Source: a virus
Virus record (IMG/VR): IMGVR_UViG_3300042691_012617
Span: 32,001 to 96,000 of that record
Strand: one strand, 5' to 3'
DNA length: 64,000 nt
The notes beneath the pieces are model-generated. The model worked only from the letters and a program-made list of their open reading frames with translations. It was not told the DNA's origin and did no database searches. The translations under genes were made by a program, and so were the position numbers. Of this stretch, positions 13,486-31,176 are shown in pieces; position 1 is the stretch's first letter, and each line of letters starts with the position of its first letter.

Positions 13486-13492
13486 TATTTAG
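13486..13492 (-). promoter_or_regulatory. Late promoter CTAAATA for gp8, overlapping the gp7 stop
   Basis: Motif 7 nt before ATG 13478. Confidence 0.72.
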
Positions 13493-15714
13493 AGTGCTTC
13501 TTCGGCACTCGTTACCGTTGGTTTCTTTGGTGGTACGAACTCGTAAGCGAATAAATGAATCTTTCTTGTTCCTGGTATCAGTCTTCCCTGTTCATCTAGT
13601 ATGTCCATCCGAAGCGTGTGTCTGCCATTCTTCATCGCCTTAAGAACAGTCCGTCTGCTGTTGATTGAAAGGGTTGACCTCAACTTGTTATCAAGATAGA
13701 CCTTGATTTCCTTCGCCTTATAATAGGAAAGGTTTCCTTCATTTGCTATCGTAAAATTGACCGTCAGGGTCTTGAAGAAGTTGTAGTCAGATTCTTGAGT
13801 GCCAACAGGTACGGATGGATTGTTTGCAATCAGCCCCTCGGCGGGAGTCGTGATTGCAATCTTTGGCACAGCCACATCTGCGAAGTTTTCGTTCTTGCAG
13901 TCAAACTCTTGTCCCTGTGGCATGTTGAAAAAAGCCCGTGCTGTGATCTTTCGGAACGCGCTATTTTCGTCGTATTCAAGAAGAGCGTATTTGAAATCTT
14001 CTTCCTCGGTGTAGTAGAGACCGTTAGGACACGGTGTCACATTCCCGTTGCAGGGTTCGCTTACATTCACCGTGATGTTGAGAGGATCGTTAGTATCCTG
14101 CAAATACTTTTCCCATGTCACGATGTCATCAGAGCGACCTTCTTTGCGATACGACCATTCCTGCCAGCCGCCGTCCTGTGATAGGAAATCATTGATTTGA
14201 GTGTTCCAAATCTTGGCAATGTGGTATCCACGCGAGACCATTTTGTTTGGGTGTGGGTAGACAATCCAAAACGGATCTGCGTTTGGGAAATCCGTTTCGT
14301 ACAAGATGCCGCTACTGGCACCTGTTGCCGCAATGAAGCCTACGCTGTTCGTGATCGGATTGCCTTTTATGGCTAAACCATTTCCAACAGCCTGAATGTA
14401 TTTGTCGTGCAGATCGGGAGAATATCCCGCTGCCGTGAGACCACCACCTGTAATTCCCGTTAGGAACCACAGAGACAGATCATCGAATGTTTGGAATGTA
14501 TATGGCACATAATGACCAATGATCGGAACATGATATGACATCAGAGCAGATGCATTCTGCAAGTCTGCTTCGGCGCATCTCTTGATCAACACCGAACCAA
14601 ACATTGCGGTTCCAATTGGGTGTACCAATCTGCGAATGACTTCTCTGTATCTGTCAATTACAACTTCGGTCTTCAGGACATACGACCAGTTCTGATAGAA
14701 GTGATTGTCCTGTAGCACCTTGTTTGTGCTGAGTCTTCCGTCATTGTTCGCGTAGTATCCCGCAGATTGACACAATGCACCTACGGTCACGGTGCCGCTG
14801 AATCCCGATCCTCGGATCGTGTCGATGACAATGCTCGGTGCAACCTTGTAGTTGATACCAAAGTCATTAATGTCGATCTTTCGAATAGATCCCGATCCGT
14901 CAACCTCGACTACCGTTCCTGCCGCTTGCTGACCGCTGTCTCCACTTGCAGCAACAAATCGAACCCGATCACCGATCTCATAGTCGCTGCCTCCATTTGA
15001 AATGCTGAGTGAAGATACAACGCTGTATACAGAGACTTCATGGAAAGACTCCTCCCCATCGGTGAAATCAAGTCCCAAGTTTCCTGCTGTAAATGTACCG
15101 TTTCTTCCCGAAATCAAGAGTTCCGCTACGGGGAAGTTGTCAATCTGATAGACATTTACATCCACGACACGGGCTGTCGCTAGGATCGAACCACTTGCGC
15201 TCTTTTGCACGATGTTGTTTCCTGCGGCACGATAAATTGTGTCGCCAAGAGCGTTGGAGATTCGTAGGTAGTTGTTCTGTGTCCATCTGCCCGAAGACAA
15301 ACGCATAATGTCTGTCTTGGGATAATAGAACTCCACCGATGTGTCGTAGAGAATACGAAACAGGAACTCATATGACTTCTCGGTGCCTTTTGCAAGATAG
15401 AACTGCTTGATGTTTTTCATGAGCCGCCGCGCATCGACAGGCTCATTCGTTGTCTTATTTACGGCAAGACTCTCGGGGAAGTTAAGCAGATACTGCTTGC
15501 GAAAGTCCTCCACGAACTGATCAAGTGTTGTATCGATATCGGGGATGTCGTGCATTGCCATGGGCGAAAGCACTTTTCCTTCATTTCTCTCCAATCCCAA
15601 CCACTCGTAATACGCAGACAGAAAGGCAACGAGCGTAGGATGATCCACCCGAACAAACTCGGGGAGTCTATCGGGAACCAAACGGGAAAGATTGCGATCA
15701 CCATCAATGCTCAT
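13489..15714 (-). CDS. gp7: Baseplate wedge protein, gp7-like
   Basis: LPEFVRVDHPTLVAFLSAYYEW, FYLAKGTEKSYEFLFRILY, LQDNHFYQNWSYVLK, LVHPIG; lies between gp6 and gp8. Confidence 0.75.
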   Translation of the reverse strand: MSIDGDRNLSRLVPDRLPEFVRVDHPTLVAFLSAYYEWLGLERNEGKVLSPMAMHDIPDIDTTLDQFVEDFRKQYLLNFPESLAVNKTTNEPVDARRLMKNIKQFYLAKGTEKSYEFLFRILYDTSVEFYYPKTDIMRLSSGRWTQNNYLRISNALGDTIYRAAGNNIVQKSASGSILATARVVDVNVYQIDNFPVAELLISGRNGTFTAGNLGLDFTDGEESFHEVSVYSVVSSLSISNGGSDYEIGDRVRFVAASGDSGQQAAGTVVEVDGSGSIRKIDINDFGINYKVAPSIVIDTIRGSGFSGTVTVGALCQSAGYYANNDGRLSTNKVLQDNHFYQNWSYVLKTEVVIDRYREVIRRLVHPIGTAMFGSVLIKRCAEADLQNASALMSYHVPIIGHYVPYTFQTFDDLSLWFLTGITGGGLTAAGYSPDLHDKYIQAVGNGLAIKGNPITNSVGFIAATGASSGILYETDFPNADPFWIVYPHPNKMVSRGYHIAKIWNTQINDFLSQDGGWQEWSYRKEGRSDDIVTWEKYLQDTNDPLNITVNVSEPCNGNVTPCPNGLYYTEEEDFKYALLEYDENSAFRKITARAFFNMPQGQEFDCKNENFADVAVPKIAITTPAEGLIANNPSVPVGTQESDYNFFKTLTVNFTIANEGNLSYYKAKEIKVYLDNKLRSTLSINSRRTVLKAMKNGRHTLRMDILDEQGRLIPGTRKIHLFAYEFVPPKKPTVTSAEEAL

Positions 15715-26505: not shown

Positions 26506-27552
26506 ATGGATATCCTCGGAAACCTACAAGCAACACGGGCAAGAGCCGCATACCAATCGTATGTCGGAAATCCCGACCCATCGTTTCAAGATTCTGTCTA
26601 CGGGCGGGCGCGTGAAACGGGATGGGCGGCGGGTAATCGTTGGTTGGTTATGGTGTTCCCAAACCAAGCGGTGAGAGACGGCATCGGCATGAATTTTGTT
26701 CCTGATGTCGCCCGATTGGCTACCACATGCAAGTCGATCAACCTCAATGAACAGACTTGGTATAGCACCGAGCAGAACTATATCAACGCAGGCCCGAACC
26801 GTGTGTTTCCTTACAAGAGAAACACCAACAATGCTTCGGGCATCAAGGTGCAGTTCAATGTCGGAACAGACATGTTTGAAAAGGAATTCTTTGAGGGGTG
26901 GTTGCGGTACATTCAAAATCCATACACGCGGCAATGGAAGTTCTACGATGACTACGCCAAGGACAGTTTCATCTATCTGCTCCTCCTGCCGAACCATGTG
27001 CAGAACTTCGCCATGGCAATGGAAGCCATGTATCAGGGCAAGGTTGTCGGCTACAAGTTTACCGAAGTCTATCCGTTCTCCATGAACATGAACGGTGGAA
27101 ACCTGAACTACAACAATGTACAGGAGCCGTTGTTCTCTGACATCGGATTCATGTACCATGACATGATCCCGCTTCAGGAAGAAACGATTAAGTACGACAA
27201 CATCATTCCAACAGTCACCGATACGGGTTACCCCGTGATTGAGCGGGATCGCTACAAGGACATCCTCACGGCAAGCCAAGCGGGTATCGACAAGGCTGTC
27301 AATGGATTTGCCCTCGGTACGATTGCAGAACGGGCGGCGTTCAACAACATTCGTCAACAGCAACGCAGCGTCCTACAGGCTTATGTCAAGCAACTAGAGG
27401 AATACAAGGTGGATGATCTGCCGCGTGGCGTGGATGGAAGAGTGGTCTATTCCACACCGCGTCAAGGTGGACTCGACTTGGGTCTGACTCTCCTGTCACA
27501 GACTCAAGGCTTTTTCGGTGCAGGATTCTTTGGAAACGGATTTTTACCCTAA
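26506..27552 (+). CDS. gp54: Baseplate tail-tube initiator gp54-like (tube fold)
   Basis: NRWLV..CKSINL..FPY..EKEFFEGW..FYDDYA..YKFTEVYP; lies between gp2 and gp26. Confidence 0.7.
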   Translation: MDILGNLQATRARAAYQSYVGNPDPSFQDSVYGRARETGWAAGNRWLVMVFPNQAVRDGIGMNFVPDVARLATTCKSINLNEQTWYSTEQNYINAGPNRVFPYKRNTNNASGIKVQFNVGTDMFEKEFFEGWLRYIQNPYTRQWKFYDDYAKDSFIYLLLLPNHVQNFAMAMEAMYQGKVVGYKFTEVYPFSMNMNGGNLNYNNVQEPLFSDIGFMYHDMIPLQEETIKYDNIIPTVTDTGYPVIERDRYKDILTASQAGIDKAVNGFALGTIAERAAFNNIRQQQRSVLQAYVKQLEEYKVDDLPRGVDGRVVYSTPRQGGLDLGLTLLSQTQGFFGAGFFGNGFLP

Positions 27553-27574
27553 CTTTTCGTCATAGGAGATCGTT

Positions 27575-28282
27575 ATGTCACTCGCAGGAATTATCGCTTC
27601 AACGCCAAAACACCAAACAACTCTTCCCGTCAGCGGAAAGAAGATCGAATACCGACCCTTCATCGTCAAGGAAGAGAAGATCCTTCTCATGGCGGCTGAG
27701 AGCAAGGACGAGAAGACAATCAACACAGCCATCCGCGATGTGATCTCCGCATGCACAGGCGGGGCTGTGGATGTCTTCAAGTTGCCATTGGTAGACATGG
27801 AGTATTTGTTCCTGCAACTCCGCAGCCAATCCGTTGGTGAGACTGCCAAGCCAAATGTCAAGTGTTCAAAGTGTGAACTCCCGACTGAGGTTGAGATCAA
27901 CCTGAAGGAGATTCAACCGATCACCGATCCAAACCATAAGAAGATCATCCCTGTTGTCGGGGATATCAGCGTGGTCATGAAGTATCCCACAGTCGATGAC
28001 CTGAAGGATATTGACTCGCAGAGTGACATTGAAAAGGCACTCACCCTGTTGGTCAAGTCAATCGACAAGGTCTATCAGGGTGAGAAGATCTTCAATGCCT
28101 CGGAAATGGATCCCAAGGAAGTTCGTGGATTCATCGAAGAGATGACGCAGGAACAGTTCAAGAAACTCTTCTCCTTCGTGGAAACGATGCCCAAGTTGGA
28201 GAAGCAAGTTCAATTCAAGTGCAAGCATTGTGGTCATGAGAACAACTCGACTCTGAGGGGGATCACAAGTTTTTTCTCCTAG
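27575..28282 (+). CDS. gp26: Baseplate hub assembly protein gp26
   Basis: LPVSGKKIEYRPFIVKEEKILLMA, DMEYLFLQLRSQSVGE, CxxC pairs, MKYPT, MPKL, terminal GITSFF. Confidence 0.92.
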   Translation: MSLAGIIASTPKHQTTLPVSGKKIEYRPFIVKEEKILLMAAESKDEKTINTAIRDVISACTGGAVDVFKLPLVDMEYLFLQLRSQSVGETAKPNVKCSKCELPTEVEINLKEIQPITDPNHKKIIPVVGDISVVMKYPTVDDLKDIDSQSDIEKALTLLVKSIDKVYQGEKIFNASEMDPKEVRGFIEEMTQEQFKKLFSFVETMPKLEKQVQFKCKHCGHENNSTLRGITSFFS

Positions 28283-28308
28283 CCTCCACCCATGACAACT
28301 TGTTCAAC

Positions 28309-28470
28309 ATGCTCTCTGTGAACTTTGCGATGATGCAAAACTTCAACTACACGCTAGTTGATCTAGAGAGCATGATGCCATGGGAGCGGAGGGTTTATAT
28401 CGATTTGCTGATGCAACACTTGAAGGAAGAGAAGGAGCGAATGGAGTCTTTGAAGAGCCAAAGACAGTAA
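28309..28470 (+). CDS. gp51: Baseplate hub assembly catalyst gp51 (not in ORF track; likely also made as a gp26 -1 frameshift fusion)
   Basis: Manual translation MLSVNFAMMQNFNYTLVDLESMMPWERRVYIDLLMQHLKEEKERMESLKSQRQ; NF..MQ..Y....E.MMPWER signature. Confidence 0.85.
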   Translation: MLSVNFAMMQNFNYTLVDLESMMPWERRVYIDLLMQHLKEEKERMESLKSQRQ

Positions 28471-28482
28471 AGGGACAGATAG

Positions 28483-31176
28483 ATGGCTGAACCAACACAA
28501 GGCAATCCCACACCACCGAACAACCAAGACGGTATTACACCACCTATGTCGAATGATGTTGCAACCAAAGCATTCGATAAGTTTTTCGCTGAGATGGAAG
28601 ACTTGAAGAAGACCATCGAAGGCTCCAAGAAAATCCTTGAGACACAAAAGAAACTTCAGGCGGATCTGAACAAAGCATCCCTCATTGAGCAGAAAGCGCG
28701 AAACGCTGTCACAGAGGGAATGAAGAAACTGGACAAGGAAAACGAAAAGTATAGAGACAAACAAGGAAATTGGCTAGCAGAGACAGAAGCGATGCAAGCC
28801 AAGTATGCCGCCGACATGGAAGAACTCCACAAGGCGCACCTAGAGACCGAAGATAGTTTCTTCAAGGCATCTGATGCGTTGATGGAAAACACAAAAGCCA
28901 TGGGGCAGATGAAGGACGCGACACAGTCTGCGCTGTTTGGTTTGCGCGATCTTCGTGACATGGTGCGTGAGTTTGATCCCGAAGTGGCGGCAGGATTGAG
29001 CAAGGCATATGGCGAAGCCGCCAATCTTGTGGTTAAATCTAACAAGGATTTTGATGCCGCCAATTCTGAAATTGCAAGGACATCGGGCGAAGAACTTGAA
29101 AAGGCGTTGGGCGAAATGGCAGATGGTCTGCGTAAAGCAAACAACGCAGAGATGCACGAAGAAGCAATCAAGGCTCAAGAGAAGATATTTGATGCTCAAA
29201 AAGAATTTGCAGAACAAACCAAGAAACTCGCTGATGAGATGTCAACTACCGAAATTGCCCAAGAACTTGGTGCAGGCGGTGGCGTTGTCGGGTTGAGAGA
29301 TATCAAAGCAGAGGTAGATGACCTTAGTGGTCTCACCGACAAAGCAGTCGCTCTCTACAAGGCAAAGAACAAAGAGGCGACTGACAGCGATGTCAAGAAG
29401 TATAAGGAAGAGTTCATCTATCAGCAGAAGTCTTTGATTCAGCAGAGACTTGAGCAAAAGTTCAACAAGGAAATTGATGAGCAGAGAAACAAGCGAATCC
29501 TGAAGATCATGGAGGAGAAAAAAGTCTCCAAGGATGTCGCGGCAAAGATCGACAGCGGAAGCAAAGAAGGCAAGCAGGCCGATGCTGACATGATCAAGCG
29601 GCACGAAGACACAATGAAGGGCTTCGAAAGCCTCAATGCCACTCAACTTGCGATGCTAGAGAATGCCAAGGACAGCGACATGAAGTTGGCTGAAAGGGAA
29701 GCAGAAGCAGCCAATGACTATCCGCCTTGGGCACAACCACTCATAGATGGAATTGCTAGTCTAAAGGACACAATGGGTGGCATGTTCAAGAAAGAGGACG
29801 GGTGGTTTAAGACCATCCTCCTAATTTTGTCCGTGACTATAGGGGCAGTTCTAGGATACATCTTCTACAAAGTGATGTTCATCTTTAACATCGTCAAGGG
29901 TATCTTTGGCTTGCTCACGCACCTTCCATTTGGAATTGGCAAAGCAATTGGGGGAATATTTGCAAAACTCGGCGGTGTTGGTGGCGGTATTGCAAAAATG
30001 TTTAGCGGCGTTGGAAGTAAGTTGGGTCTTTTCGGAGAAGGGATTGCCAAGGTTTTTCCATTCATTGGACGATTGGGAACCGCTTTCAAATTTGGCTTCC
30101 AAATCCTAGGAAAGGCATTCTTCTACATCCAACTTGTAGTAGATGCCATCTTTGGTGCATACAAGGGTTTCCAACAGTTGGGCAATATCAAAGGTTTGAT
30201 CATGGGTGCAATCGCTCAGATCATCAGCGGGCTTACATTTGGACTGCTCGACTTCCAAAGCATCTTCGATTTCTTCAACACAACCATGAGCGGTGTATTC
30301 GATGGAATCGCGGGTGTGTTTGAACCAATCGTTGAGTTTTTCGGAAAGGCATATGACAACTTGACGAATGCCTTCTCGCGTGTGATGGCAGTTTTTCAAG
30401 GAGAGGGGTCTATCTTCACCAAGATATTCAAAGTCATTCAGATCGGCATCACAACAACAGTCAAGAACCTCGTCGCGTTCATAGGAGCGGCAATAAAGAC
30501 TGTTTTCAATGCTGTTGTTGTATTGCCTTTCAAGATTGGTGAGTTTATCGGTGAGATGCTTGTCAAGTTGGCAGAATTGACATATGACGCTTTTGTATCT
30601 CTGTGGGATTGGATCTCTAGTGGTCGAATCTTGGCAGATGTCGCAAACTTTGGTACTTGGCTTTATGACGAACTAATCGGATTCTTCGCAGGAATCATCA
30701 ATGCAATCGCTGACGGCTTGGGTGAAATCCCAATCGTTGGTGGCTACATCAAGGAAGCATTGGGCGGCGGTGCGGGTGGAGATGGTCTACAGACTGCGGT
30801 TGAGAAGAGTGCTGAAGTTGTAAAAGAGGCACAGCAAAGCGCAGACACTATGGCGACAAACGCTACCACACCAACTCAAAGTAGTGCCGTGCAGTTTGTA
30901 AACACTCCTATAACGCCGATTGCAACTCCAAGCGGTAAAGTACAATTTGCTGCTCCCTCTTATAATGCTAATACTGTCAATACGGCAACGATGAACACAG
31001 CAACAGCAAGAATGGAAGCCACAAACCAAGGTGGCACCGCTGTCATCAACACCCCGACTACAAACAATGTCATGAGTGGCGGTGGTGGCGAGAGCAATGT
31101 GCTGATGCCGACAAACAACAGAAACACGGAACCGACATTCCGCGCCCTGCTGTTTCAGGATTGTCCTGCCCTATAA
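28483..31176 (+). CDS. Tape measure protein (gp29-like)
   Basis: 897 aa; long helical N-half, amphipathic G/F/I-rich central region, TPTTNNV C-terminal motif; follows gp26/gp51. Confidence 0.7.
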   Translation: MAEPTQGNPTPPNNQDGITPPMSNDVATKAFDKFFAEMEDLKKTIEGSKKILETQKKLQADLNKASLIEQKARNAVTEGMKKLDKENEKYRDKQGNWLAETEAMQAKYAADMEELHKAHLETEDSFFKASDALMENTKAMGQMKDATQSALFGLRDLRDMVREFDPEVAAGLSKAYGEAANLVVKSNKDFDAANSEIARTSGEELEKALGEMADGLRKANNAEMHEEAIKAQEKIFDAQKEFAEQTKKLADEMSTTEIAQELGAGGGVVGLRDIKAEVDDLSGLTDKAVALYKAKNKEATDSDVKKYKEEFIYQQKSLIQQRLEQKFNKEIDEQRNKRILKIMEEKKVSKDVAAKIDSGSKEGKQADADMIKRHEDTMKGFESLNATQLAMLENAKDSDMKLAEREAEAANDYPPWAQPLIDGIASLKDTMGGMFKKEDGWFKTILLILSVTIGAVLGYIFYKVMFIFNIVKGIFGLLTHLPFGIGKAIGGIFAKLGGVGGGIAKMFSGVGSKLGLFGEGIAKVFPFIGRLGTAFKFGFQILGKAFFYIQLVVDAIFGAYKGFQQLGNIKGLIMGAIAQIISGLTFGLLDFQSIFDFFNTTMSGVFDGIAGVFEPIVEFFGKAYDNLTNAFSRVMAVFQGEGSIFTKIFKVIQIGITTTVKNLVAFIGAAIKTVFNAVVVLPFKIGEFIGEMLVKLAELTYDAFVSLWDWISSGRILADVANFGTWLYDELIGFFAGIINAIADGLGEIPIVGGYIKEALGGGAGGDGLQTAVEKSAEVVKEAQQSADTMATNATTPTQSSAVQFVNTPITPIATPSGKVQFAAPSYNANTVNTATMNTATARMEATNQGGTAVINTPTTNNVMSGGGGESNVLMPTNNRNTEPTFRALLFQDCPAL

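What the first reader, a model, noticed from the sequence alone, without database searches (positions are those of the whole stretch)
28262..28470. Probable programmed -1 frameshift fusing gp26 to gp51 immediately upstream of the tape measure gene
Seen: gp26 ends AGT TTT TTC TCC TAG, which contains the correctly phased slippery heptamer T TTT TTC (28270-28276). The -1 frame is open from there (LLASTHDNLFN-MLSVNFAMMQ...MMPWERR) to TAA 28470. ATG 28309 has no obvious SD, and the HDNLFN residues that I recall as gp51-like lie upstream of it. The next gene is the tape measure. Known: lambda G/GT-type tail assembly chaperones use a -1 frameshift just upstream of the tape measure gene, while T4 gp26 and gp51 are treated as separate genes. 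Inference: gp26 and gp26-51 are the T4-like equivalent of the G/GT pair.
Basis: partly seen in the sequence, partly recalled or inferred. Interest (0 to 1): 0.82.

Follow-up and report, generated by a model that had tools for sequence, protein, structure and literature searches.

The report
Frameshift joins gp26 to gp51-like tail
One tail-assembly gene of this uncultured T4-like phage very probably makes a short (235 aa) and a long (298 aa) protein by slipping back one base on a conserved run of six T's, but this layout was already described for T4-like phages in 2022, so this is a clear new example and not a discovery.

Summary
The gp26 homologue (27575-28282) ends AGT TTT TTC TCC TAG, with an in-phase T TTT TTC at 28270-28276. 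The -1 frame runs from there to TAA 28470, and the tape-measure-like gene starts at 28483.

- About 50 distinct relatives (98% to 30% gp26 identity), plus cultured Kyanoviridae, Straboviridae, Pootjesviridae and others, keep an in-phase T run. All have the gp51-like piece in the -1 frame, with protein conservation starting at the T run.
- That piece usually has no start codon for about 20 codons and no ribosome-binding site.
- T4 gp51 is a gp26 paralogue with exactly this C-terminal extension. The conceptual fusion aligns with it straight across the junction.
- The phage's own genome holds only one copy of each part.
- The gp26 N-domain resembles solved tail assembly chaperones at modest Z scores.

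I favour ribosomal -1 frameshifting over RNA-polymerase slippage, because Ackermannviridae keep only an in-phase T_TTC. No experiment was possible.

[quoted passage not shown] I could see only its title and two citing summaries. This scan has also reported the same thing many times on other DNA.

Verdict: real, a new member of a known kind, modest interest.

The parts
27564..27569 (+). Shine-Dalgarno sequence (AGGAGA) of the gp26 gene
   Evidence: Sequence. Duplex energy with the anti-SD is -7.3 kcal/mol.
27575..28282 (+). gp26 homologue, 235 aa: the short (0-frame) form of the tail assembly / hub assembly chaperone. It has a TAC-like N-domain (about residues 1-98) followed by a body with two Cys pairs.
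   Evidence: PF12322 at E 7.5e-60 and 202.8 bits against a cut-off of 24.5. phrog_150 positions 11-232 of 282. AlphaFold model with pLDDT 87. VIA-align top hits are 3fgx, 2ob9 (HK97 TAC) and 3klu (YqbN), Z 6.4-7.5, on residues 1-98.
28270..28276 (+). Slippery heptamer T TTT TTC in X XXY YYZ phase: the proposed -1 shift site
   Evidence: for the sequence. The in-phase T run of 6-8 is conserved in all 51 distinct junctions. The codons run against the local codon bias. T6Y runs are about 8-fold depleted in the window. H_HH.U_UU.Y is among the most efficient -1 motifs in E. coli (PMC4066793).
28280..28282 (+). 0-frame stop codon TAG of gp26, one codon after the heptamer
   Evidence: In nearly all relatives the stop lies 0-1 codons after the T run. 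T4 gp26 also ends 2-3 residues after its FF motif.
28276..28470 (+). -1 frame extension: 64 codons plus TAA, the gp51-like C-terminal domain. Joined to gp26 residues 1-234 it gives a 298-aa long form.
   Evidence: phrog_634 at E 9.4e-20 and phrog_150 positions 231-282 of 282. Conserved from residue 1 in 40 distinct sequences. hhalign against T4 gp51 residues 199-243, E 5.6e-5. Model is four helices, pLDDT 78. It is the only copy in the 168-kb genome.
28483..31176 (+). 897-aa tape-measure-like gene (gp29 position), immediately downstream
   Evidence: phrog_1272 'tail length tape measure protein', E 6.7e-6. The synteny gp4-gp2-gp54-like-gp26-extension-long gene is the same as in Mosig, Melnitz and S-BM3. 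The identity is inferred, because neither Pfam nor NCBIfam gives a hit.
26506..27552 (+). gp54-like tail tube initiator, upstream neighbour (context)
   Evidence: Weak tail-tube PHROG hits. The syntenic gene in Mosig is annotated as baseplate tail tube initiator.

Best explanation
The gp26 gene encodes two proteins. Most ribosomes stop at TAG 28280 and make the 235-aa short form. A minority slip back one base while tRNA-Phe occupies the TTT and TTC codons of T TTT TTC (28270-28276). They then read CTC CTA GCC... in the -1 frame to TAA 28470, giving a 298-aa long form with the junction ...GITSFF|LLASTHD.... The long form is the counterpart of T4 gp51 and the short form the counterpart of T4 gp26. 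Together they are the T4-lineage version of the lambda G/GT tail assembly chaperone pair, and they are encoded directly upstream of the tape-measure gene that they presumably serve. Shown here: the site, its phasing, its conservation, the homology across the junction, and the lack of an independent start. Inferred: that the slip is ribosomal, the ratio of the two forms, and the chaperone function towards the tape-measure protein.
For: (1): in all 51 distinct junctions from 78 IMG/VR loci and 3 cultured phages (98% to 30% gp26 identity), a run of 6-8 T starts at codon position 3 and the gp51-like homology is in the -1 frame, starting at the run. In about 10 lineages a -1 frame stop sits immediately 5' of the run, so the shift can only occur there. 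(2): the same layout occurs in Vibrio EniLVp02, phi-Grn1 and V07, Ralstonia RSP15, Aeromonas AS-sw, Stenotrophomonas YB07, Rhizobium AF3 and RHph_I1_18, and Paraglaciecola GD1. (3): residues 1-20 of the extension are conserved, although the first ATG is mostly at codon 21. SD energy is -0.4 kcal/mol at that ATG, against -5.6 for gp26 starts, -4.7 for the next gene and -1.9 at random positions. (4): T4 gp51 consists of PF12322 (residues 1-201, E 4e-55) plus this extension. A profile of the conceptual fusions aligns with gp51 without a break across the junction, whereas T4 gp26 ends 2-3 residues after FF. (5): there is one PF12322 copy and one extension copy in the 168-kb, 93%-complete genome, so a long form can only come from recoding. 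(6): the T run goes against codon bias in a genome depleted of T6Y. (7) For ribosomal as opposed to transcriptional slippage, one search shows that Kuttervirus, Agtrevirus and Vibrio D532 keep only an in-phase T_TTC (four T's) with the extension still in -1. U_UU.[U,C] tetramers and H_HH.U_UU.Y heptamers are among the most shift-prone motifs in E. coli (PMC4066793). (8): the three best structural matches of the N-domain include the HK97 tail assembly chaperone (2ob9, Z 6.8) and YqbN (3klu, Z 6.4).
Against: No conserved downstream hairpin or pseudoknot and no upstream hairpin was found, so the only candidate stimulator is the nearby 0-frame stop. The x-F-F protein motif is itself conserved (T4 gp26 has it as TTC TTT), so the constant phase of the T run does not exclude polymerase slippage. 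[quoted passage not shown] The structural matches have Z below 8, a range in which unrelated folds also appear. The tape-measure identity of the downstream gene rests on a weak match plus position.
Confidence: 0.62

Rival explanations
1. The same two proteins are made, but by transcriptional slippage. RNA polymerase stutters on the T6 run and inserts one extra U into a fraction of the late transcripts, which ordinary translation then reads through into the extension.
For: The conserved element is a pure homopolymer of 6-8 T. No RNA structure of the kind that usually accompanies efficient -1 frameshifting was found. U7 and A7 runs are avoided in E. coli genes in all frames, possibly because of slippage (PMC4066793). 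[quoted passage not shown] Only a few percent of long form may be needed, since lambda G:GT is about 30:1 (PMC5009743).
Against: Most lineages keep the minimum of six T's and not the 8-9 or more typical of bacterial polymerase slippage (my own knowledge of the dnaX, mxiE and IS cases). Ackermannviridae and Vibrio D532 keep only four T's, in phase, with the extension still in -1. There is no upstream hairpin of the terminator-like kind that boosts slippage on short runs. The run never extends 5' out of phase.
Confidence: 0.22
2. No fusion is made. The downstream ORF is translated on its own, from ATG 28309, from the Met pair at 28330-28335, or by termination-reinitiation, into a separate peptide of 45-55 aa that acts together with gp26.
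For: Annotators call it this way (Melnitz, Mosig, EniLVp02, AF3, GD1). A Met at extension position 21 or 22 is nearly invariant. Several distant phages have an ATG overlapping the gp26 stop (TGATG or TAATG). In the protein census nearly all database entries are stand-alone small ORFs.
Against: Conservation starts at the T run, 13-21 codons upstream of the first ATG. The SD at those ATGs is weaker than at random positions. The start codons differ between clades while the T run and its frame do not. The homologous part of T4 gp51 is covalently joined to a gp26-like body. The small-ORF database entries simply reflect what gene callers can do.
Confidence: 0.08
3. The layout is a broken gene or a homopolymer sequencing error in what is really a single long gp51-like gene.
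For: Homopolymers are prone to indels. Four in-frame fused proteins exist in the database (P0017, P0029, P0081, P0092).
Against: The identical frame offset is found in more than 50 independent assemblies and more than 15 cultured phages. The fused entries are all singletons from one contig each, and two of them are garbled. The short form ends where T4 gp26 ends.
Confidence: 0.02

Closest known systems
[quoted passage not shown]
   Same: As summarised by two citing papers, TAC-N genes of T4-like phages carry poly-T -1 slippery sequences (PMC12846349). Some T4-like phages instead carry one short gene and one long gene that is the fusion (PMC10885494). That is exactly the picture found here: gp26 with the T run and -1 extension in this phage, against separate genes 26 and 51 in T4.
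   Different: I could not read the paper itself, because it is not held. This uncultured phage is at most 41% identical in gp26 to any cultured phage, so it is a further instance.
Phage lambda gpG / gpGT and the conserved -1 frameshift of tail assembly genes (Levin 1993; Xu, Hendrix, Duda 2004, 2013, 2014; reviewed in PMC5009743)
   Same: There are two overlapping ORFs just upstream of the tape-measure gene. The second is in the -1 frame without its own start, and a slippery heptamer lies near the end of the first. The result is a short and a long form sharing the N-terminal part. The N-domain fold resembles solved TACs.
   Different: There is no detectable sequence similarity. gp26 is larger (235 aa) and carries an extra Cys-rich body. 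The extension is only 64 aa. The heptamer is T TTT TTC and not G GGA AAG, and the stop follows within one codon. The 2016 review still listed T4 as the exception.
Phage T4 gp26 (208 aa) and gp51 (249 aa), 'hub assembly chaperones' (Leiman et al. 2010, PMC3004832)
   Same: Both belong to PF12322. Window gp26 corresponds to T4 gp26, and window gp26 plus the extension corresponds to T4 gp51. gp51 is needed for assembly but is absent from the particle, as expected of a chaperone.
   Different: In T4 and Merlin the two forms are separate, divergently transcribed paralogues only 20% identical to each other. Their FF motif is encoded TTC TTT, which is not slippery. Here there is one gene and a recoding site.
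U-run -1 frameshift sites: HIV-1 gag-pol U UUU UUA, IS elements with U_UU.U_UU.C, T7 gene 10 G GUU UUC
   Same: The same class of heptamer. U_UU.U_UU.Y is in the high-efficiency class in E. coli and is used by IS elements (PMC4066793). One relative (L093) has the HIV-type T TTT TTA.
   Different: Those sites usually have a 3' stem-loop or pseudoknot. None is detectable here.

Membership tests
G/GT-type tail assembly chaperone recoding pair | Two overlapping ORFs located immediately upstream of the tape-measure gene | tested here: met
   gp26 is at 27575-28282, the extension runs to 28470 and the 897-aa gene starts at 28483. The tape-measure identity is weak but consistent (phrog_1272, E 6.7e-6).
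G/GT-type tail assembly chaperone recoding pair | Second ORF in the -1 frame, conserved as protein from the shift site, without its own start signal | tested here: met
G/GT-type tail assembly chaperone recoding pair | [quoted passage not shown] | tested here: met
   T TTT TTY/A/G in all 51 distinct junctions and in 9 distant cultured phages. Four further phages keep an in-phase T_TTC.
G/GT-type tail assembly chaperone recoding pair | Tail assembly chaperone fold | tested here: inconclusive
   VIA-align top hits are 3fgx Z 7.5, 2ob9 (HK97 TAC) Z 6.8 and 3klu (YqbN) Z 6.4, each with 86-88 residues aligned on model residues 1-98 and standing above the next rows. However, Z is below 8. Foldseek gave nothing significant (2ob9 at rank 4, E 1.1).
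G/GT-type tail assembly chaperone recoding pair | Two products made in a fixed ratio, both absent from the virion, binding the tape-measure and tube proteins | not testable with these tools
   This needs proteomics or reporters.
T4 gp26/gp51 family (PF12322, phrog_150, phrog_634) | PF12322 match above the curated cut-off | tested here: met
   202.8 bits against a cut-off of 24.5.
T4 gp26/gp51 family (PF12322, phrog_150, phrog_634) | gp51-type C-terminal extension continuous with the gp26-like body | tested here: met
   Continuity holds only through the -1 shift. phrog_150 covers 11-232 for gp26 and 231-282 for the extension. The fusion profile aligns T4 gp51 across the junction. hhalign gives E 5.6e-5.
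T4 gp26/gp51 family (PF12322, phrog_150, phrog_634) | Two separate paralogous genes, as in T4 | tested here: not met
   There is a single PF12322 locus and a single extension locus in the 168-kb genome.
Programmed transcriptional slippage sites | Homopolymer long enough for polymerase realignment (usually 7-9 or more in bacteria) or a 5' hairpin helper | tested here: inconclusive
   The window has six T's, relatives have 6-8 and some only 4. There is no 5' hairpin. The length threshold is from my own knowledge.
Programmed transcriptional slippage sites | Transcripts with an inserted base at the run | not testable with these tools

The most novel reading that the evidence does not exclude
The long form is made without any RNA-structure stimulator. 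One possibility is a minimal ribosomal slip whose only conserved cis elements are an in-phase U run (which can shrink to U_UUC) and a 0-frame stop 0-1 codons downstream. The other is slippage of the phage-modified late-transcribing RNA polymerase on as few as six T's. Either would be an unusually bare recoding signal maintained across several phage families.
Probability: 0.25. Interest if true: 0.5.

Novelty: new member of a known kind. Interest (0 to 1): 0.3.

Why it matters
It removes the apparent T4 exception to the near-universal tail-chaperone frameshift of long-tailed phages. [quoted passage not shown] That point is already in the literature (2022). What this window adds is practical. 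Most T4-like genomes, this one included, are annotated with a bogus stand-alone 45-60 aa 'baseplate hub assembly catalyst' ORF, or with nothing at all. They should instead carry a joined CDS. The comparative data gathered here (a tetramer-only site in Ackermannviridae, codons against bias, no RNA structure) sharpen the still untested question of whether the ribosome or the polymerase slips.

Tried and rejected
- blastn of the locus against cultured phages found nothing. Protein-level searches were needed.
This was the one available test of transcriptional slippage.
A viral-contig scan with P0081 returned only a 26% relative with the standard layout and T TTT TTA.
- The search for homologous proteins with the extension and 'longer' lengths found nothing.
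- The downstream fold (z -1.07) and the consensus fold of 7 relatives (-1.36 kcal/mol, no covariation) showed no 3' stimulator. The upstream fold (z +0.36) showed none either, and no terminator-like site lies on the + strand.
- Foldseek against the PDB, a profile search of PDB sequences and NCBIfam gave nothing significant.
- Complex prediction with the whole 897-aa protein and gp26 residues 1-100 returned no verdict (score 0.00, controls not run). This is neither for nor against binding.
- The full text of Vladimirov et al. 2022 is not held. Literature searches with gp26, gp51 and frameshift found nothing relevant. The paper surfaced only through a citing article.
- Independent initiation and pseudogene or sequencing error were considered and rejected; see the rival explanations.
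- The second in-phase T TTT TTC in the window (13927-13933, minus strand) was rejected as a recoding site, because its -1 frame closes after 9 codons.

Full report
**What is there**

The window is part of a 168-kb, 93%-complete IMG/VR virus record of a T4-like myovirus. Around the finding lies a baseplate and tail module:
- On the minus strand: gp6, gp5, gp53 and gp48 homologues.
- On the plus strand: gp4 (head closure), gp2 (DNA end protector), a gp54-like tube initiator, gp26, a small gp51-like ORF and an 897-aa tape-measure-like gene.
- gp32 follows on the minus strand.

The closest cultured phages (S-BM3, Melnitz, Mosig; Kyanoviridae) share only 37-41% gp26 identity.

**Checking the observation**

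- One search shows ...ATC ACA AGT TTT TTC TCC TAG, with the TAG at 28280-28282. T TTT TTC therefore occupies 28270-28276 in X XXY YYZ phase.
- The -1 frame is open from 10 codons before the run to TAA 28468-28470 and holds the ORF listed at 28300..28470.
- A simultaneous -1 slip would give gp26 residues 1-234 followed by LLASTHDNLFNM..., 298 aa in all.
- The ORF 27575-28282 is a clear gp26 homologue (PF12322, E 7.5e-60).
- The -1 peptide matches phrog_634 'baseplate hub assembly catalyst' from its fourth residue (E 9.4e-20), so the homology does lie upstream of ATG 28309.
- That ATG and the next two have no Shine-Dalgarno sequence (+0.4 to +0.7 kcal/mol). gp26 (-7.3) and the 897-aa gene (-5.0) do have one.

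**Is it more than chance?**

- TTTTTTY occurs three times in 64 kb on both strands, against 24.3 +/- 5.8 in shuffles. The genome therefore avoids such runs.
- Outside the slip site, this gp26 gene writes Phe as TTC 9 of 9 times and Ser as AGT 1 of 15 times. AGT TTT TTC is held against the gene's own bias.
- The same is true of the 62-65% identical relatives L023, L026 and L028.

**Comparative test**

A viral-contig scan gave 78 loci spanning 98% to 30% gp26 identity.
- In every locus with an intact junction, the gp51-like homology is in the -1 frame and the tblastn alignment starts at the first residue after the shift point.
- Among 51 distinct junctions, the T run (6 T in 41, 7 in 8, 8 in 2) always starts at codon position 3.
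- The preceding codon varies (Ser AGT or TCT, Asp GAT, Asn AAT) but always ends in T, and the first Phe codon is always TTT.
- The 0-frame stop follows 0-1 codons later in almost all junctions.
- In about ten lineages a -1 frame stop lies immediately 5' of the run (tga/tag/taa-TTTTTT), which confines the shift to the run itself.
- The 40 distinct extensions align from residue 1 with the consensus FF-r-i-a-l-s-H..L..y...NF.lMQ...Y.L.....M.PWER..Y..LL.
- The first ATG is usually at codon 21. Its SD energy averages -0.4 kcal/mol, against -5.6 for gp26 starts, -4.7 for the next gene and -1.9 at random positions.

More distant cultured T4-like phages have the same arrangement: Vibrio EniLVp02, phi-Grn1 and V07, Ralstonia RSP15, Aeromonas AS-sw, Stenotrophomonas YB07, Rhizobium AF3 (T TTT TTG) and RHph_I1_18, and Paraglaciecola GD1.

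**The link to T4**

- In T4 and Citrobacter phage Merlin, genes 26 and 51 are separate and divergent.
- T4 gp51 (249 aa) matches PF12322 over residues 1-201 (E 4.3e-55) and phrog_634 over 147-246. It is therefore a gp26 paralogue (20% identity to gp26) with a C-terminal extension.
- On phrog_150 (282 positions), window gp26 covers 11-232 and the window's -1 peptide covers 231-282.
- A profile built from the 51 conceptual fusions aligns T4 gp51 without interruption across the junction, as far as ...MIPAERGFVLKLIE. T4 gp26 ends 2-3 residues after its FF, just like the window's short form.
- hhalign of the extension profile against gp51 gives residues 199-243, E 5.6e-5.
- In T4 and Merlin the FF motif is TTC TTT, which is not slippery. 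This is a natural control.
- The window's own genome has one PF12322 locus and one extension locus, so a gp51-type protein can arise there only by recoding.

**Chaperone identity**

- The gp26 model (pLDDT 87) has an N-terminal domain (about residues 1-98).
- Its three best matches among 48,161 PDB representatives are 3fgx (Z 7.5), the HK97 tail assembly chaperone 2ob9 (Z 6.8) and YqbN 3klu (Z 6.4). To my knowledge YqbN belongs to the XkdN-type TAC family.
- Each match aligns 86-88 residues. Foldseek alone was not significant.
- The Z values are in a range where chance matches occur, so I count this as suggestive.
- The extension models as four helices (pLDDT 78).
- T4 gp51 is required for hub assembly but absent from the particle, and gp26 and gp51 are tabulated as hub assembly chaperones (PMC3004832).

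**Mechanism**

Both a ribosomal -1 slip and insertion of one U by RNA polymerase give the same protein.

I favour the ribosome for these reasons:
- U_UU.U_UU.Y belongs to the most efficient class of -1 heptamers in E. coli, and U_UU.[U,C] to the most shift-prone tetramers (PMC4066793).
- Kuttervirus SP1 and 4HA11, Agtrevirus CECAV_050 and Vibrio D532 have only ATT TTC or CTT TTC. That is an in-phase T_TTC with four T's, yet the extension is still in the -1 frame and there is no nearby start.
- Four T's are implausibly short for polymerase slippage.
- Most lineages keep exactly the six T's a heptamer needs, not a longer run.

Points against the ribosomal reading:
- No 3' structure is detectable and no 5' hairpin either.
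- The phase is also fixed by the conserved x-F-F residues.
- The 2022 title mentions a non-translational mechanism.

My odds are: ribosomal 0.62, transcriptional 0.22, separate peptide 0.08, artefact 0.02.

**Prior art**

- A 2016 review still stated that G-T frameshifting is conserved among long-tailed phages 'except T4' (PMC5009743).
[quoted passage not shown] The text is not held.
- One citing paper says poly-T sequences are known -1 signals in the TAC-N genes of T4-like phages (PMC12846349).
- Another says some T4-like phages carry one short gene and one long fusion gene instead of frameshifting (PMC10885494).
- This scan has also reported the same gp26/gp51 frameshift repeatedly on other genomes. 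Two of those notes said no paper reports it, which is contradicted here.

**Census**

- A profile of the extension finds 2055 cluster representatives at E of 0.001 or better in 1.84 billion proteins. The top 150 are almost all 46-99 aa stand-alone ORFs whose called starts vary, which is how gene callers treat the locus.
- Four in-frame fusions (P0017, P0029, P0081, P0092) carry PF12322 plus the extension. Each is a singleton from one contig, and two are garbled. They look like homopolymer indels or rare variants, but I could not inspect their DNA.

**Verdict**

The feature is a new member of a kind described in 2022. Interest is modest. The open questions are experimental: whether both products are made, and which machine slips.

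Noticed in passing
window 13927-13933, minus strand (inside ORF 13489..15714): This is the only other coding-strand TTTTTTC in the window, and it is also in X XXY YYZ phase (GC T TTT TTC), inside a baseplate wedge gene (phrog_17744). The -1 frame closes after 9 codons, so it looks like a chance site that would only truncate the protein.
   Followed up: partly
whole window: TTTTTTY runs are about 8-fold depleted: 3 observed on both strands against 24.3 +/- 5.8 in dinucleotide shuffles. This suggests general selection against slippery T runs in this phage.
   Followed up: partly
L089:2200-2300, L096:1300-1400, L097:1300-1400, L098:1230-1330: Ackermannviridae (Kuttervirus, Agtrevirus) and Vibrio phage D532 have the gp51-like extension in the -1 frame but only an in-phase T_TTC tetramer (ATT TTC or CTT TTC) before the stop. 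This is a reduced slip site that argues for ribosomal and against transcriptional slippage. In SP1 and 4HA11 the extension is not annotated at all.
   Followed up: partly
P0081, P0017, P0029, P0092 (database proteins): These are rare in-frame gp26-extension fusions, each a singleton from one ENA contig. P0081 has exactly the predicted trans-frame junction (...NFFLLILSHESL...). They could be homopolymer indels, population variants or real long-form genes.
   Followed up: partly
L093:2258-3150: This relative has the HIV-1-type heptamer T TTT TTA (0-frame D-F-L-S-stop). The second slip codon is therefore Leu and not Phe, while the -1 frame still reads FF.
   Followed up: no
L003:2190-2235 (Pelagibacter phage Mosig), L099 (Rhizobium RHph_I1_18): In these phages the gp26 0-frame continues 8-10 codons beyond the T run before its stop. 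The close stop is therefore usual but not obligatory.
   Followed up: no
window 27860-27880 and 28220-28235 (gp26 residues ~97-100 and ~216-219): gp26 carries two Cys-x-x-Cys pairs (KCSKCE and KCKHCG) that the model brings together in the beta-rich body, which looks like a zinc ribbon. T4 gp51 gives weak Zn-ribbon Pfam hits. Lambda-type TACs lack this module.
   Followed up: no
L001:2205-2391 (Synechococcus phage S-BM3), L085:2226-2394 (Aeromonas phage AS-sw): The gp51-like extension is present in the -1 frame but is left unannotated in these GenBank records. Other records annotate it as a stand-alone 45-60 aa 'baseplate hub assembly catalyst' with differing start codons.
   Followed up: partly
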